The notes under the pieces were generated by a model. It saw nothing but the letters and a program-made list of their open reading frames with translations. It did not search any database and had not been told where the DNA came from. Positions 13,693 through 41,081 of a DNA stretch of 64,000 bases are shown one piece after another (position 1 is the first letter of the stretch; every line of letters begins with the position of its first letter). The stretch lies in the sequence record PZ445498.1. One strand, given 5' to 3'. The translations under genes were made by a program, and so were the position numbers. Source of the stretch: a phage.

Positions 13693-14232
13693 TTATACCT
13701 TAAGTTTCTGAAGAGCCTTACACATTTCAAGATTTGGACTAAACTCCAGCATATAGCTGATAGCGTTTAAATCTTGAAGGTTTATTCCAGTCCTGCCGTT
13801 TACAATAACAGAAGGAAATTGATACATCATAGCACCAGCATCATCTAGGACACACCAATGCTTGAGCTTATATTTTTCTACAAAACGTAAAACAGAATTA
13901 CCCCGAGATAAACCACCTCCAGTAAAGTCTGTTGTACCAAGAAAACGATCGATCAAACCGAGTCCGGTCATAATCTGAACGTTCTCCATTTCATTTCGTA
14001 CAGAAAACCATGAAGATACCCCAACAATCATTATTGGGGGTGGCTTAAGAAAGTTCTGAAAAGCCTGGAGTAATGGCTTGTAAACCCAATCACCACCAAA
14101 GAATAGCTTCTCACTATCTGGAGCATGATGGTGAGAGATGCTCGAATTGAGCACCCCATCAATATCCAGGAAAATCACAGGAGTATTACTTATTTCCACC
14201 AGTAGCATCCCACGTCCAGACTTTAACTTCAT
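13693..14232 (-). CDS. HAD-superfamily phosphatase-like protein
   Basis: HAD motif I FLDIDGVL near the N-terminus. Confidence 0.55.
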   Translation of the reverse strand: MKLKSGRGMLLVEISNTPVIFLDIDGVLNSSISHHHAPDSEKLFFGGDWVYKPLLQAFQNFLKPPPIMIVGVSSWFSVRNEMENVQIMTGLGLIDRFLGTTDFTGGGLSRGNSVLRFVEKYKLKHWCVLDDAGAMMYQFPSVIVNGRTGINLQDLNAISYMLEFSPNLEMCKALQKLKV

Positions 14233-31175: not shown

Positions 31176-31346
31176 ATGAAAACCTTAGTAATTATTGGTG
31201 TTAACACTCACGGTATTCGTACTACGAAAACAGTTAAAACTACTAACGTTGCTGAAATTACTACAAATCCTAAGAAGTTTGATTTCGCCAAAGTCTCAGC
31301 AGTTATGACAGAACAATCTTTTAACCAAGCACTGGGAATTAAATAA
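31176..31346 (+). CDS. hypothetical small protein
   Basis: 56 aa from ATG 31176 after GAGAGGA RBS. Confidence 0.4.
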   Translation: MKTLVIIGVNTHGIRTTKTVKTTNVAEITTNPKKFDFAKVSAVMTEQSFNQALGIK

Positions 31347-31789
31347 TGGAAGAGAATATTCTAGATGTTTTGCGTAGGGCTTTGCAGGAATCCAAGTTTA
31401 ATGGTTCTGATAAAGAAGTAGCTAAAAGCTACCAGACCATAATCGGAGATCTTCAGCGTGTTGATAAAGACTTCATTACTTCTGAACAGTTTGTATCTTA
31501 TCTAAAAGCTCAACTGAAAAGCATTAATCAGACGAAAGCTAAACTTCACGGTCAAGACCTTGATAATTATAGCTTGCAGTCTGCTCAGTATGAATATATA
31601 CTGAACAAATGGTTACAGCAGTATCTGCCGCCTCAGTTATCTGATTCTGAGATTCGCAAATACTTTGCAGAATTAGTTAAGTTGAATCCTGGGATTACAA
31701 AAGGTATGCTGATGAAAGCGATTAAGGAAGAGTTTCCTGGTCGTTACGACGGTGGCATTGCTGCTCAGGTTGCTGGCGAATTTAATTAA
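31346..31789 (+). CDS. hypothetical protein
   Basis: 147 aa ORF. Confidence 0.5.
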   Translation: MEENILDVLRRALQESKFNGSDKEVAKSYQTIIGDLQRVDKDFITSEQFVSYLKAQLKSINQTKAKLHGQDLDNYSLQSAQYEYILNKWLQQYLPPQLSDSEIRKYFAELVKLNPGITKGMLMKAIKEEFPGRYDGGIAAQVAGEFN

Positions 31790-38124: not shown

Positions 38125-38201
38125 GGGGGTGTAATCGAATTGGCATAGGTACTGGACTTAAAATTCAGGTTTTGTGGGTTCGAATCCCACCACCCCTACC
38201 A
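38125..38201 (+). tRNA. tRNA, class-I length, anticodon TAA (Leu-type anticodon)
   Basis: Acceptor GGGGGTG/CACCCCT, anticodon arm CTGGA-CTTAAAA-TTCAG, T arm GTGGG-TTCGAAT-CCCAC, A73, CCA; imperfect D stem. Confidence 0.5.
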
Positions 38202-39115: not shown

Positions 39116-39196
39116 GGGGGATTGGCTCAGTGGCGACGGCGCCTGGCTGTAGACCGGGTATATCACGCGGAGGTTCGAGTCCTCCATCCCCCACCA
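39116..39196 (+). tRNA. tRNA-Tyr (anticodon GTA)
   Basis: Acceptor GGGGGAT/ATCCCCC, anticodon arm CCTGG-CTGTAGA-CCGGG, 10 nt variable region, T arm GGAGG-TTCGAGT-CCTCC, CCA. Confidence 0.65.
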
Positions 39197-39204
39197 AATT
39201 TAAT

Positions 39205-39279
39205 GCACCTATCGTCTAATGGTTAGGACATCAGGATTTCAATCTGAGAATCGGAGTTCAATTCTCCGTGGGTGTGCCA
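39205..39279 (+). tRNA. tRNA-Glu (anticodon TTC)
   Basis: Acceptor GCACCTA/TGGGTGT, D stem GTCT/GGAC, anticodon arm TCAGG-ATTTCAA-TCTGA, T arm CGGAG-TTCAATT-CTCCG, CCA. Confidence 0.8.
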
Positions 39280-39365: not shown

Positions 39366-39440
39366 GCACCTTTAGCTGAGATGGATTAGCGCTTGCCTGA
39401 AGAGCTTGAGAGGTTCGTTCAATTCGAACAGGGTGCACCA
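39366..39440 (+). tRNA. tRNA-Phe (anticodon GAA)
   Basis: Acceptor GCACCTT/AGGGTGC, D stem GCTG/TAGC, anticodon loop CTGAAGA, T arm GTTCG-TTCAATT-CGAAC, CCA. Confidence 0.75.
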
Positions 39441-40053: not shown

Positions 40054-40136
40054 GGGTCGTTAGCCAAGCGGTTTGGCGGGGGACTGTTAATCCATGTCGA
40101 AAGACAACGTAGGTTCGAATCCTACACGGCCCGCCA
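40054..40136 (+). tRNA. tRNA with Asn-type anticodon arm (GTT) but 13 nt variable arm
   Basis: Acceptor GGGTCGT/ACGGCCC, D stem GCCA/TGGC, anticodon arm GGGGA-CTGTTAA-TCCAT, variable hairpin GTCGAAAGAC, T arm GTAGG-TTCGAAT-CCTAC, CCA. Confidence 0.6.
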
Positions 40137-40163
40137 ATTTCATTAACAACTGAGGAAATAGAT

Positions 40164-40349
40164 ATGACAACTCGTGCAATTGCTCGACTAGAAGCTGATC
40201 GTGATAATCTGATTAATAATATTAAGGTTCGTGATAATATTATTAAGGCTCTGAAAGCTGAACTTCTTGAAGAACTTCAAGGTCAAGTAGAGCGTCGTGA
40301 AGCTCTAAAAGAGGTTGAGGAAGCTATCGAAAAACTCAAGGCTGAATAA
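40164..40349 (+). CDS. hypothetical small coiled-coil protein
   Basis: 61 aa ORF. Confidence 0.45.
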   Translation: MTTRAIARLEADRDNLINNIKVRDNIIKALKAELLEELQGQVERREALKEVEEAIEKLKAE

Positions 40350-40352
40350 ATT

Positions 40353-40934
40353 ATGCACGGAATATCCTTACCCATTCCAGGGTTTGAGGAGTACTTAGTA
40401 AGTTTGGATGGGTTAGTATTTAGTATCAAATCAAACAAAATACTAACCCCAATAACCAGTAATTACGGATACTTATCTATACGTCTCCATAAAAATGGTC
40501 AACAGAGAAATACCGGTGTACATAGGATTTTAGCATGTGCATTTAAGAAATTACCAAGTCTAGACTCTGAACTAGAAGTTGACCATATTAACACAGACAT
40601 TACTTATTGGGGTCTTAATAACTTACAAGTGCTCACAAAAGAGCAGCATCTAGAAAAGACTTTAAAAGACAAAGGATTTAGTAAACTAAACCATGATAAT
40701 TGTTGTAAGGATTGTGGTAAAGCTATTTCTTTAAAAGCTGAAAAATGTCAGGAGTGCTCTTCATATAAACCAAAAGATATCTCTATAACTAAAGAAATAA
40801 TCGAGGTTACAGTAAGAGAGCTAGGCTGGTCAGGTGCAGGGAGAAAGTTAAGTTATTCAGATAATGGGTTGCGTAAAAGATACACTTCTTTAGGAGGCAA
40901 TCCTAAAGAACTTAAAAAGTTAAAGGTACTATAG
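40353..40934 (+). CDS. HNH homing endonuclease
   Basis: HNH core ELEVDHINTD and C-terminal Cys4 CCKDCGK...CQEC; stop codon lies in first bases of tRNA-Asp. Confidence 0.7.
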   Translation: MHGISLPIPGFEEYLVSLDGLVFSIKSNKILTPITSNYGYLSIRLHKNGQQRNTGVHRILACAFKKLPSLDSELEVDHINTDITYWGLNNLQVLTKEQHLEKTLKDKGFSKLNHDNCCKDCGKAISLKAEKCQECSSYKPKDISITKEIIEVTVRELGWSGAGRKLSYSDNGLRKRYTSLGGNPKELKKLKVL

Positions 40935-41005: not shown

Positions 41006-41081
41006 ACATCCATAGCTCAATTGGTTAGAGCTACCGCCTCTTAAGCGGTAGGTTCTAGGTTCAAGTCCTAGTGGGTGTACC
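41006..41081 (+). tRNA. tRNA-Lys (anticodon CTT)
   Basis: Acceptor ACATCCA/TGGGTGT, D stem GCTC/GAGC, anticodon arm ACCGC-CTCTTAA-GCGGT, T arm CTAGG-TTCAAGT-CCTAG, CCA. Confidence 0.8.

What the first reader, a model, noticed from the sequence alone, without database searches (positions are those of the whole stretch)
40054..40136. tRNA with Asn-type anticodon arm but a class-II-like 13 nt variable arm
Acceptor, D and T arms are canonical and the anticodon arm (GGGGA-CTGTTAA-TCCAT) closely matches bacterial tRNA-Asn, yet the variable region is 13 nt with its own small hairpin (GTC-GAAA-GAC), a feature normally restricted to Leu/Ser/Tyr tRNAs. It is either an insertion into a tRNA-Asn gene or a tRNA with altered identity.
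Basis: seen in the sequence. Interest (0 to 1): 0.55.

Follow-up and report, generated by a model that had tools for sequence, protein, structure and literature searches.

The report
Phage asparagine tRNA with extra arm
This is a real asparagine tRNA gene of a T5-like phage carrying an extra hairpin normally seen only in leucine, serine and tyrosine tRNAs. The same feature is conserved in hundreds of unrelated phages, is almost absent from cellular genomes, and I found no published description of it.

Summary
Window 40054-40136 (+) is an 83-nt tRNA with anticodon GTT, discriminator G73 and an encoded CCA. Its 13-nt variable region forms a 3-bp stem capped by a GAAA tetraloop.

It is not a one-off lesion. 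About 280 T5-like phages carry this allele. Homologues with compensatory changes in the extra stem occur in T4-like, rV5-like and jumbo phages.

In 185,579 cellular genomes the same pattern found 37 places. Only 17 of these are true long-arm tRNA-Asn genes, and 11 of those sit in dense tRNA arrays.

The Asn identity set (G34, U35, U36, G73) is kept across the family, so altered identity is unlikely, though aminoacylation was not tested. With the extra arm removed, the bodies resemble ordinary tRNA-Asn. The arm is therefore an insertion, gained or lost repeatedly.

Phage T5 itself carries a different, ordinary tRNA-Asn at this locus, so published T5 tRNA-Asn experiments do not test this allele.

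What the arm does is not shown. My favoured guess (about 0.3) is escape from host nucleases that cut tRNA-Asn. The window copy also has a private G28·A42 mismatch.

The parts
40054..40136 (+). Complete tRNA-Asn(GUU) gene, 83 nt, with encoded CCA
   Evidence: ARAGORN; Rfam RF00005 at 50.7 bits; sequence
40054..40060 (+). Acceptor stem 5' strand GGGTCGT. It pairs with 40126-40132 (ACGGCCC), giving G1-C72 and a U4·G69 wobble
   Evidence: Sequence; Rfam alignment
40063..40077 (+). D arm GCCA-AGCGGTT-TGGC: a 4-bp stem and 7-nt loop, which is class-I-like. It has C16 where E. coli tRNA-Asn has U16
   Evidence: Sequence; E. coli asnT for comparison
40079..40095 (+). Anticodon arm GGGGA-CTGTTAA-TCCAT, with a G27·U43 wobble and a G28·A42 mismatch
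   Evidence: Sequence; non-canonical pair flagged by Infernal
40080..40080 (+). Private substitution. The window has G where sequenced T5-like relatives have T (U28-A42). It creates the G28·A42 mismatch
   Evidence: All best phage hits are 82/83 and none is identical over the full length. The common IMG/VR variant reads GTGGA/TCCAT. The mismatch shifts the MFE away from the cloverleaf
40086..40088 (+). Anticodon GTT (Asn; reads AAC/AAU)
   Evidence: ARAGORN
40096..40108 (+). Variable region of 13 nt: a hairpin plus a 3-nt tail AAC. The final C (position 48) is the Levitt partner of G15
   Evidence: Sequence; covariation of nt 15 with the last variable nt across the family
40096..40105 (+). Variable-arm hairpin GTC-GAAA-GAC: a 3-bp stem with a GNRA tetraloop
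   Evidence: Present in the MFE fold; compensatory changes in homologues
40109..40125 (+). T arm GTAGG-TTCGAAT-CCTAC
   Evidence: Sequence; Rfam alignment
40133..40133 (+). Discriminator G73, an Asn identity element
   Evidence: Sequence; identity rules from PMC9976931
39971..40046 (+). Upstream neighbour tRNA-Cys(GCA), separated by 7 nt. The two genes are probably co-transcribed (inference)
   Evidence: ARAGORN

Best explanation
This is a functional phage tRNA-Asn(GUU). It belongs to a large lineage of tRNA-Asn genes, largely confined to viruses and to dense tRNA arrays, that carry a short class-II-like variable arm. That arm has 0-1 unpaired nt, a 3-4-bp stem, usually a GNRA tetraloop, and a 3-4-nt tail ending in the Levitt partner of nt 15.

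Inferred mechanism:
- The gene is transcribed with the neighbouring tRNAs of the phage cluster.
- It is aminoacylated with asparagine by the host AsnRS, which reads only G34, U35, U36 and G73.
- It decodes AAC/AAU during infection.

The extra hairpin is an insertion into an Asn-type body that selection keeps in phages.

Its most likely role (inference, about 0.3 on its own) is to make the phage's replacement tRNA differ in shape from the host's class-I tRNA-Asn. Host tRNA-Asn is a substrate of anticodon-stem nucleases of the OLD/Toprim family (AriB of PARIS, P2-OLD). In the T5-like allele the 28:42 pair has also changed, from C-G in E. coli to U-A, and to G·A in this window. That removes the paired CNG motif that P2-OLD cuts.

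What is shown: the gene, its fold, its conservation, the covariation, the retained Asn identity elements, and its concentration in viral contigs and tRNA arrays. What is not shown: expression, charging, and any nuclease resistance of this allele.
For: Gene and fold. With the common U28 the MFE is the full cloverleaf including the variable hairpin, at -30.5 kcal/mol.

Conservation:
- 642 phage records match; 524 of them cover at least 80% of the gene.
- About 280 T5-like records match at 95-99%.
- Homologues keep the hairpin through double changes. Examples are GTTC/GAAC, GTTC/GGAC, ATCC-GCAA-GGAT, GTCA/TGAC and GGC/GCC, in Demerecviridae, Straboviridae, Phapecoctavirus and a Pseudomonas jumbo phage.

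Family breadth:
- These gave 84 representatives below 88% identity, with 53 distinct stems. 44 of 84 loops are GNRA, and G73 is present in 82 of 84.

Covariation on an unfitted MAFFT alignment: all 4 variable-stem pairs show changes on both sides. For pair 50-63 the counts are GC 25, AU 14, UA 10, CG 4.

Tertiary register: nt 15 covaries with the last variable nt, G-C 22 and A-U 18.

Virus and tRNA-array linkage:
- 14 of 120 IMG/VR tRNA-Asn hits are long-arm.
- 185,579 cellular genomes gave 37 pattern hits. 17 are true long-arm tRNA-Asn, and 11 of those lie in arrays of 7-36 tRNAs.

Identity: anticodon plus G73 define bacterial Asn identity, and G73 is an antideterminant against TyrRS and LeuRS (PMC9976931).

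Defence context:
- E. coli tRNA-Asn(GUU) is cut by AriB at 40|41 (PMC12409363).
- It is a substrate of P2-OLD, which cuts after C28 and C40 of paired CNG motifs. Phage tRNA-Thr resists P2-OLD through CNG alteration plus a shorter anticodon stem (PMC12445682).
- E. coli asnT has CGG/CCG. The window has GGG/CCA.
- 16 loci encode both a short-arm and a long-arm tRNA-Asn. This fits diversification rather than redundancy.
Against: No data on expression, aminoacylation or nuclease resistance exist for this allele.

Published rescue experiments used phage T5's own tRNA-Asn, which is a different, class-I gene of 78 nt.

The arm is dispensable in nature:
- T5 and 152 related records use the class-I allele at the same locus.
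- Proteus phage PM2 has a 5-nt variable loop on a long-arm-type body.

Points against a general nuclease-shield role:
- Phage tRNA-Lys, the prime AriB and PrrC target, showed no long arm in 0 of 106 genes. Arg showed 0 of 145 and His 2 of 67.
- The 28:42 pair composition does not differ between long-arm and short-arm phage tRNA-Asn.
- The AriB site U36-A-A-U-C|C41 is unchanged in the window gene.

The window copy has a private G28·A42 mismatch. With it, the cloverleaf (-25.9 kcal/mol) is less stable than a competing fold (-30.6).

From general knowledge, not tested here: class II synthetases approach tRNA from the variable-loop side, so tolerance of the arm by AsnRS is assumed rather than shown.
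Confidence: 0.65

Rival explanations
1. The arm is neutral baggage. A small palindromic insertion arose in the variable loop. It persists only because AsnRS, EF-Tu and the ribosome ignore that region, and it does nothing useful.
For: AsnRS identity rests on the anticodon and G73 only. Long-arm and short-arm alleles replace each other at the same T5-like locus and within Bragavirus. Long arms also turn up sporadically in many other class-I isotypes of phages. A chromosomal Azoarcus tRNA-Asn has an 11-nt tandem duplication in its variable loop, which shows how such insertions can arise.
Against: A neutral insert should decay. Instead the stem is kept by compensatory changes in 53 distinct versions, and the loop is GNRA in 44 of 84. 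The tail keeps the Levitt partner. The form makes up about 12% of viral tRNA-Asn hits but is nearly absent from 185,579 cellular genomes. 16 loci keep both forms.
Confidence: 0.2
2. The arm is a folding or stability aid. The GNRA-capped hairpin stabilises the tRNA core. This could help a phage tRNA made quickly and perhaps under-modified, or could compensate for weak D or anticodon stems. It would have no role in defence evasion.
For: GNRA tetraloops, which are very stable, dominate at 44 of 84, with GAAA in 30. With U28 the cloverleaf including the hairpin is the MFE. Phage tRNAs in this window deviate from canonical arms in other ways too, for example a short tRNA-Leu and a reduced tRNA-Tyr arm.
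Against: This does not explain why Asn is so strongly favoured over other isotypes. No tertiary receptor for the tetraloop was identified. The class-I T5 allele works without the arm (PMC12409363).
Confidence: 0.15
3. The identity is altered. The long arm together with G73 and the G1-C72/G2-C71 pairs makes the tRNA a SerRS substrate, or a substrate of another enzyme. AAC/AAU would then be partly read as another amino acid, or the RNA would have a non-translational role.
For: [quoted passage not shown] G73 contributes, and G1-C72 and G2-C71 are conserved in E. coli tRNA-Ser (PMC9976931; PMC7609411). The window gene has G1-C72, G2-C71 and G73.
Against: The stem is only 3 bp. The tRNA-Ser genes in the same window are 89 and 94 nt long, with much larger variable arms. 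Most family members have U1-A72 (71 of 111), the typical bacterial tRNA-Asn pair, rather than Ser-type acceptor stems. GUU was fixed by the search pattern and so is not independent evidence, but G73 was free to vary and is kept in 82 of 84. Proteome-wide Asn-to-Ser misreading would be costly.
Confidence: 0.07
4. The gene is a remoulded class-II tRNA. It descends from a tRNA-Tyr(GUA), or a tRNA-Ser(GCU), that switched to Asn by one anticodon change plus A73G.
For: The variable-arm geometry (0-1 nt, 3-4 bp, then a 3-4-nt tail) matches bacterial tRNA-Tyr, where E. coli tyrV reads C-GUC-AUC-GAC-UUC. The window gene is 71% identical to a Tsukamurella chromosomal tRNA-Tyr, with an identical T arm. 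It is only 51% identical to E. coli asnT. Full-length nearest neighbours are enriched for Tyr.
Against: Full-length comparison is confounded by length. With the variable region and anticodon loop removed, the nearest body is a short-arm tRNA-Asn in 75 of 113 cases and a Tyr in 2. The best identity to 184 tRNA-Tyr genes sharing the same arm motif is at most 0.79, and none is in the same locus. The window D arm is class-I-like, with a 4-bp stem.
Confidence: 0.08
5. This particular copy is impaired or decaying. The private G at 40080 breaks the 28:42 pair, so the window's tRNA-Asn may be poorly functional, or the G may be a sequencing error.
For: No full-length identical copy exists among about 280 relatives. 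The mismatch makes a non-cloverleaf fold 4.7 kcal/mol more stable than the cloverleaf.
Against: Single mismatches in anticodon stems are common in working tRNAs. All other arms and identity elements are intact. Phage tRNA-Thr genes that resist P2-OLD combine motif loss with a shortened anticodon stem, so the change could even be adaptive.
Confidence: 0.1

Closest known systems
Bacterial class-I tRNA-Asn(GUU), e.g. E. coli asnT/U/V/W
   Same: Anticodon loop CUGUUAA, G73 and A37. The anticodon arm differs at only two positions (28 and 42). The expected synthetase is AsnRS and the codons read are the same.
   Different: E. coli has a 5-nt variable loop (AUGUC), U1-A72, a C28-G42 pair and U16. The phage gene has a 13-nt variable region with a hairpin, G1-C72, G28·A42 and C16. 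Overall identity is 51%.
Bacterial class-II tRNA-Tyr(GUA)
   Same: A 13-nt variable region with a 3-bp stem and 3-nt tail, and G1-C72. The anticodon differs by one base. There is 59-71% identity to the E. coli and Tsukamurella tRNA-Tyr genes.
   Different: Tyr has A73 and A36 plus a class-II D arm. The phage gene has G73 and U36, with a 4-bp class-I D stem. Body comparisons do not place the family with Tyr.
Phage T5 tRNA-Asn (T5t17), the allele used in PARIS rescue experiments
   Same: Same locus downstream of tRNA-Cys in T5-like genomes, and the same anticodon, G73 and G1-C72.
   Different: It is 78 nt with a 5-nt variable loop and an anticodon stem GCAUC/GUUGA. It is only 55% identical to the window gene and is followed by the 'RNA3' element. 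Experimental results for it cannot be transferred to the window gene.
Nuclease-resistant phage tRNA variants: T5 tRNA-Lys(UUU) against AriB, and phage tRNA-Thr(UGU) against P2-OLD
   Same: These are phage copies of host tRNAs that defence nucleases cut, with changes at the nuclease's recognition site. Like the C28U/G42A change described for tRNA-Thr21, the T5-like long-arm allele has U28-A42. The window has G28·A42, which also weakens the stem.
   Different: Those variants keep a class-I shape, and resistance maps to a few substitutions. No resistance has been measured for the long-arm tRNA-Asn, and no variable-arm effect has been reported. The word 'variable' does not occur in either paper.
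Nematode nev-tRNAs (PMC3333845): class-II tRNAs with anticodons that are neither Leu nor Ser
   Same: A long variable arm combined with an anticodon of a class-I amino acid (abstract).
   Different: By title and abstract, nev-tRNAs are class-II tRNAs that decode an alternative genetic code for leucine, so their body, not their anticodon, sets identity. The phage family keeps the identity elements of its anticodon's amino acid, has an Asn-type body, and has a much shorter arm.

Membership tests
tRNA (Rfam RF00005) | Cloverleaf scoring above the family's gathering threshold | tested here: met
   50.7 bits against 29, E = 2.2e-9. ARAGORN also calls it
Bacterial-type tRNA-Asn (AsnRS substrate) | Anticodon G34-U35-U36 | tested here: met
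   GTT at 40086-40088. Identity rule from PMC9976931
Bacterial-type tRNA-Asn (AsnRS substrate) | Discriminator G73 | tested here: met
   G at 40133. G73 is present in 82 of 84 family representatives
Bacterial-type tRNA-Asn (AsnRS substrate) | Class-I variable loop of 4-5 nt | tested here: not met
   13 nt with a hairpin. This is typical anatomy rather than a known identity element
Bacterial-type tRNA-Asn (AsnRS substrate) | Aminoacylation with asparagine | not testable with these tools
   Needs a charging assay or acid-gel/mass-spectrometry analysis. Published data concern the different T5 class-I allele
Class-II tRNAs (bacterial Leu, Ser, Tyr, Sec) | Variable region longer than 10 nt that forms a stem-loop | tested here: met
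   13 nt, GTC-GAAA-GAC. The stem covaries across homologues
Class-II tRNAs (bacterial Leu, Ser, Tyr, Sec) | Anticodon of Leu, Ser, Tyr or Sec | tested here: not met
   The anticodon is GTT, for Asn
Class-II tRNAs (bacterial Leu, Ser, Tyr, Sec) | A73 (Leu, Tyr), or a Ser-type long variable arm with G73 | tested here: not met
   The discriminator is G73, which argues against Leu and Tyr. The variable stem is only 3 bp, whereas the tRNA-Ser genes of the same window are 89 and 94 nt with much larger variable arms
Class-II tRNAs (bacterial Leu, Ser, Tyr, Sec) | Class-II type D arm (3-bp stem, non-Watson-Crick 13:22) | tested here: not met
   In the window gene A13-U22 pairs, giving a 4-bp stem with a 7-nt loop. 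Some other family members do have class-II-like D arms
Phage long-variable-arm tRNA-Asn lineage (defined here) | GUU anticodon, G73, and a variable arm with 0-1 nt, a 3-4-bp stem, a tetraloop and a 3-4-nt tail ending in the Levitt partner of nt 15 | tested here: met
   The window gene has 0 nt, 3 bp, GAAA and AAC, with G15/C48
Nuclease-resistant phage tRNA variants (counter-defence tRNAs) | Sequence change at the recognition or cleavage motif of a nuclease that cuts the host isoacceptor | tested here: met
   The paired CNG motif (C28-G-G30 / C40-C-G42 in E. coli asnT) is replaced by GGG/CCA in the window. The motif is defined in PMC12445682. The AriB site UAAUC|C is unchanged
Nuclease-resistant phage tRNA variants (counter-defence tRNAs) | Demonstrated resistance to cleavage and rescue of infection | not testable with these tools
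   No experiment exists on this allele. One indirect observation: Bas33 (HildyBeyeler) has a long-arm tRNA-Asn and escaped PARIS when given T5 tRNA-Lys alone

The most novel reading that the evidence does not exclude
The extra arm is a steric anti-determinant. Grafting a short, rigid, GNRA-capped helix next to the top of the anticodon stem would let phages hide their replacement tRNA-Asn from host anticodon-stem nucleases. It might do the same, less often, for tRNA-Cys, Trp, Thr and Ile. The relevant nucleases would be those of the OLD/Toprim family (AriB, P2-OLD) or others that dock across the anticodon stem and D region. Alternatively, the arm could mark phage tRNAs as 'self' for phage enzymes that destroy host tRNAs. 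In either case charging would still work, because AsnRS reads only the anticodon and G73. That would be a shape-based mode of tRNA counter-defence, distinct from the point-mutation mode described so far.
Probability: 0.3. Interest if true: 0.8.

Novelty: new variant of a known kind. Interest (0 to 1): 0.6.

Why it matters
The standard rule is that long variable arms belong to Leu, Ser and Tyr (in bacteria) and Sec tRNAs. That rule underlies how SerRS, TyrRS and LeuRS pick their substrates.

This finding shows a large, diverse family of tRNA-Asn genes, found mainly in viral contigs and dense tRNA arrays, that breaks the rule while keeping Asn identity elements. The extra stem is maintained by compensatory evolution, and the form is almost absent from cellular genomes.

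Host tRNA-Asn(GUU) has recently been shown to be cut by PARIS/AriB and P2-OLD. The family therefore offers a direct test of whether tRNA shape, and not only sequence at the cut site, is used in the phage-host contest over tRNAs.

It also gives synthetic biologists a natural example of a class-I identity carried on a class-II-like scaffold.

Practical points:
- Annotation pipelines already call these genes tRNA-Asn.
- Results obtained with 'T5 tRNA-Asn' should not be transferred to this allele, because T5 carries a different gene at the locus.

Tried and rejected
1. Transferring PARIS rescue data to this gene. Rejected. T5 proper has a 78-nt class-I tRNA-Asn at the locus, only 55% identical.

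2. Origin from tRNA-Tyr by A36U plus A73G. Full-length nearest neighbours and a Tsukamurella tRNA-Tyr hit suggested it. Body-only comparison and 184 extra tRNA-Tyr genes gave no support. I keep it only as a low-probability rival.

3. Long arm and loss of the CNG motif as alternative solutions. The 28:42 pair composition is the same in long-arm and short-arm phage tRNA-Asn, so there is no support.

4. BLAST against 5,426 E. coli genomes. Uninformative, because E-values are too high for an 83-nt query.

5. Promoter and terminator scan around the gene. No more hits than in shuffled sequence.

6. RNAalifold on the MAFFT alignment missed the variable stem, because indels misalign it. Explicit pair counting on the same alignment recovered it.

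7. Literature. Nine searches and ten papers were opened for 'variable arm', 'extra arm' or 'class II' together with phage tRNA-Asn. None describes this feature. Subscription-only literature, including the 1980s T5 tRNA sequencing papers, could not be searched.

8. Supplement of the P2-OLD paper, wanted to see whether class-II tRNAs are spared. It is not held.

9. The identity of Bas34 and its tRNA-Asn type was not resolved. I identified Bas26, Bas28, Bas32 and Bas33.
Full report
**Observation**

The window is the tRNA cluster of a T5-like phage (Demerecviridae). ARAGORN finds 26 tRNA genes between 33.3 and 46.6 kb, all on the + strand. The 38-44 kb stretch is 92-97% identical to T5-like Escherichia and Salmonella phages.

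At 40054-40136 ARAGORN calls tRNA-Asn(gtt). Rfam's tRNA model scores 50.7 bits against a threshold of 29, and places a 10-nt insertion in the variable region.

Read from the sequence, the gene is:
- acceptor GGGTCGT;
- TA;
- D arm GCCA-AGCGGTT-TGGC;
- G;
- anticodon arm GGGGA-CTGTTAA-TCCAT;
- variable region GTC-GAAA-GAC-AAC;
- T arm GTAGG-TTCGAAT-CCTAC;
- acceptor ACGGCCC;
- G73;
- CCA.

One point was missed: the anticodon stem has a G28·A42 mismatch.

**The gene is not peculiar to this phage**

The 83-nt gene matches 642 phage records. About 280 T5-like records are 95-99% identical.

More distant homologues keep the extra hairpin through changes on both strands:

| Phage | Group | Variable hairpin |
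|---|---|---|
| Proteus phage 1 | Demerecviridae | GTTC-GAAA-GAAC |
| Providencia PR1 | Demerecviridae | GTTC-GAAA-GGAC |
| HildyBeyeler | Tequintavirus | ATCC-GCAA-GGAT |
| Klebsiella Roth17 | not classified in the record | GTCA-GAAA-TGAC |
| Shigella SdyM_006 | Bragavirus | GTC-ATTT-GAC |
| ESCO25 | Phapecoctavirus | GTTC-GAAA-GAAC |
| Pseudomonas PA1C | 305-kb jumbo phage | GGC-GAAA-GCC |

A pattern scan of IMG/VR used the Asn anticodon arm, a gap too long for a class-I variable loop, then the T loop.

After de-duplication there are 84 representatives below 88% identity. Their typical plan is 0-1 unpaired nt, a 3-4-bp stem, a tetraloop and a 3-4-nt tail. The loop is GNRA in 44 of 84 and GAAA in 30. 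There are 53 distinct stem sequences, and G73 is present in 82 of 84.

On a plain MAFFT alignment of 70 representatives, all four variable-stem pairs show double changes. For pair 50-63 the counts are GC 25, AU 14, UA 10 and CG 4. This holds even though indels misalign a third of the rows.

The last variable nucleotide covaries with nt 15 (G-C 22, A-U 18). The hairpin therefore sits between positions 44/45 and 48, as in true class-II tRNAs.

**Where the form is found**

A scan that accepted both short and long gaps returned 14 long-arm and 106 short-arm loci among its first 120. That is about 12% of this sample. Eleven of the 14 long-arm loci hold at least 5 tRNA genes.

The long-gap pattern found only 37 places in one genome from each of 185,579 bacterial and archaeal species. 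Seventeen of these are ARAGORN tRNA-Asn genes of 83 nt or more. Eleven of those lie inside arrays of 7-36 tRNA genes, including Micromonospora and Verrucosispora arrays and several MAG contigs. Such arrays have been proposed in the literature to be anti-defence elements.

One further cellular case, in Azoarcus, is a plain 11-nt tandem duplication in the variable loop.

**Identity**

Bacterial Asn identity can be transplanted with the three anticodon bases plus G73. G73 in tRNA-Ser acts as an antideterminant against LeuRS and TyrRS (PMC9976931). The window gene has all four Asn elements.

SerRS relies mainly on a long variable arm and ignores the anticodon. G73 and the G1-C72/G2-C71 pairs also contribute. 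Mis-serylation therefore cannot be excluded from sequence alone.

Three points argue against it:
- The stem here is 3 bp, whereas the Ser tRNAs of the same window are 89 and 94 nt.
- Most family members carry the U1-A72 pair typical of bacterial tRNA-Asn, 71 of 111.
- G73, which the search pattern left free, is kept in 82 of 84 representatives.

I put altered identity at about 0.07.

**Origin**

Full-length comparison pointed to tRNA-Tyr. A Tsukamurella chromosomal tRNA-Tyr is 71% identical to the window gene, against 51% for E. coli asnT.

That signal is largely due to shared length. With the variable region and anticodon loop removed, the nearest body is an ordinary short-arm tRNA-Asn in 75 of 113 cases, against about 6 expected, and a Tyr in 2. 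The shared search motif biases this test a little.

Against 184 further tRNA-Tyr genes, identity never exceeds 0.79, and no Tyr/Asn pair shares a locus.

Long-arm and short-arm forms occur on near-identical bodies. SdyM_006 versus PM2 is 92%, and several other pairs are 85-88%. The arm is therefore an insertion into Asn-type bodies that has been gained or lost repeatedly.

**A correction that matters**

Phage T5 itself carries a different gene at this locus. It is a 78-nt class-I tRNA-Asn with a 5-nt variable loop and stem GCAUC/GUUGA, followed by the 'RNA3' element. This allele is present in 152 records.

One published result is that T5 tRNA-Lys, Thr and Asn together rescue cells and phages from PARIS (PMC12409363). 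That result concerns the class-I allele, not the long-arm one.

BASEL phages Bas26, Bas28, Bas32 and Bas33 carry long-arm alleles. Bas33 escaped PARIS when given T5 tRNA-Lys alone. This is compatible with its own long-arm tRNA-Asn being adequate, but it proves nothing, because T4 and T7 needed no tRNA-Asn either.

A NUMOD4/HNH homing-endonuclease gene lies just downstream in the window, at 40353-40934. This fits cassette exchange at the locus (inference).

**What the arm may do**

Host tRNA-Asn(GUU) is a secondary target of AriB, cut between 40 and 41. AriB's second subunit is modelled on D-loop U16-U17.

It is also a substrate of P2-OLD. That enzyme cuts after C28 and C40 of paired CNG motifs. 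Phage tRNA-Thr evades it by altering the motif (C28U/G42A in one case) and shortening the stem.

E. coli asnT has CGG/CCG. The common T5-like long-arm allele has U28-A42. The window has G28·A42, which removes the motif on both strands and weakens the stem. The window also has C16 where E. coli has U16. A U16C change impaired AriB cleavage of tRNA-Lys.

A helix emerging next to the 27-43 pair could plausibly hinder such enzymes. Sixteen loci carry both arm types.

The case is weak:
- Phage tRNA-Lys never shows the arm (0 of 106).
- 80% of aligned family representatives keep C28-G42. Pair composition does not differ between long-arm and short-arm genes.
- The AriB site itself is unchanged.
- T5 and PM2 do without the arm.

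I give the shield idea about 0.3, a stability role 0.15, and neutrality 0.2.

**The window copy**

Its G at 40080 has no full-length identical counterpart in about 280 relatives. With it, the cloverleaf (-25.9 kcal/mol) loses to a competing fold (-30.6). With U28, the cloverleaf including the extra hairpin is the MFE at -30.5.

The G could be a slightly deleterious private mutation, a sequencing error, or an adaptive weakening of the stem.

**Known or new**

The gene is routinely annotated as tRNA-Asn. I found no paper in the searchable library that mentions its long variable arm. The PARIS, P2-OLD, retron and anticodon-loop papers do not discuss it, and a review of non-canonical tRNAs does not mention phages. 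Older subscription literature on T5 tRNA sequences could not be checked.

I classify it as a new variant of a known kind: a functional class-I-identity tRNA on a class-II-like scaffold, typical of phages.

Noticed in passing
IMG/VR loci L009-L128 and L168-L273: Long variable arms, often GNRA-capped hairpins, also occur in phage tRNAs of other class-I isotypes. Counts in the long-arm-Asn loci are Cys 9/47, Trp 7/46, Thr 8/58 and Ile 12/71, with a few Glu, Gly, Ala, Met, Asp, Pro and Phe. Lys and Arg show none. They are commoner in loci that also hold a long-arm tRNA-Asn (62/999) than in short-arm-Asn clusters (10/436); odds ratio 2.8, p = 0.0014.
   Followed up: partly
window 38125-38201; phage loci in general: The window's tRNA-Leu(UAA) is only 77 nt with a 4-nt variable loop, so it is a class-I-like tRNA-Leu. 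In phage tRNA clusters about half of tRNA-Leu genes are under 79 nt (61/136 and 22/45). Phages therefore break the class-I/class-II rule in both directions.
   Followed up: partly
window 39116-39196: The window's tRNA-Tyr(GUA) is 81 nt. Its variable region is reduced to about 10 nt with no clear stem, and it has G37 in the loop CUGUAGA. T5's tRNA-Tyr is 88 nt. T5-like tRNA-Tyr is the published counter to retron-Eco7 PtuAB.
   Followed up: no
L274 (phage T5 NC_005859) 13878-14030, compared with window 40054-40163: Two alternative tRNA-Asn alleles occupy the same locus in T5-like phages. T5 has an ORF, a class-I tRNA-Asn and the 73-nt 'RNA3' tRNA-like element. The window has tRNA-Cys, a 7-nt spacer and the long-arm tRNA-Asn. 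Sequence similarity resumes at '...TTTCATTAA(T/C)AACTGAG'.
   Followed up: partly
window 40164-40349 and 40353-40934: Directly downstream of the tRNA-Asn lie a DUF7337 ORF (104 bits) and a NUMOD4/HNH homing-endonuclease-like ORF. The endonuclease may drive cassette exchange in the tRNA region.
   Followed up: no
window 31346-31789: This ORF of 147 aa has a weak YqeY-like match (PF09424, 24.9 bits, just below the cutoff of 27). From its position it is probably the counterpart of T5.081, which is annotated 'tRNA amidotransferase'. The YqeY name is shared with the GatB_Yqey tail domain of tRNA-dependent amidotransferases (from memory). No link to the tRNA-Asn was tested.
   Followed up: no
L166 114-200 (Azoarcus sp. 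L1K30 chromosome): This is an otherwise ordinary chromosomal tRNA-Asn with an 11-nt tandem duplication (CCGTAGGTCAT CCGTAGGTC) in the anticodon-stem/variable-loop region. It shows one way variable-region insertions can arise.
   Followed up: no
L132, L142, L145, L152, L160 (Saprospiraceae MAGs): The long-gap Asn pattern matches repeated units next to a normal 75-nt tRNA-Asn. In L142 there are three copies 128 bp apart. ARAGORN does not call them tRNAs. They may be tandem tRNA-Asn-derived repeats or pseudogenes.
   Followed up: no
L134, L135, L139, L163 (Micromonospora/Verrucosispora): Arrays of 23-36 tRNA genes within 8 kb on actinomycete chromosomes each include a long-arm tRNA-Asn of 89-90 nt with a 5-6-bp variable stem.
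   Followed up: no
window 39205-39277, 39366-39438, 41006-41080, minus strand: Rfam 'Plastid-ycf2' and 'Plastid-psbI-rps4' hits lie below their thresholds on the antisense strand of tRNA genes. They are artefacts of tRNA-derived models.
   Followed up: yes
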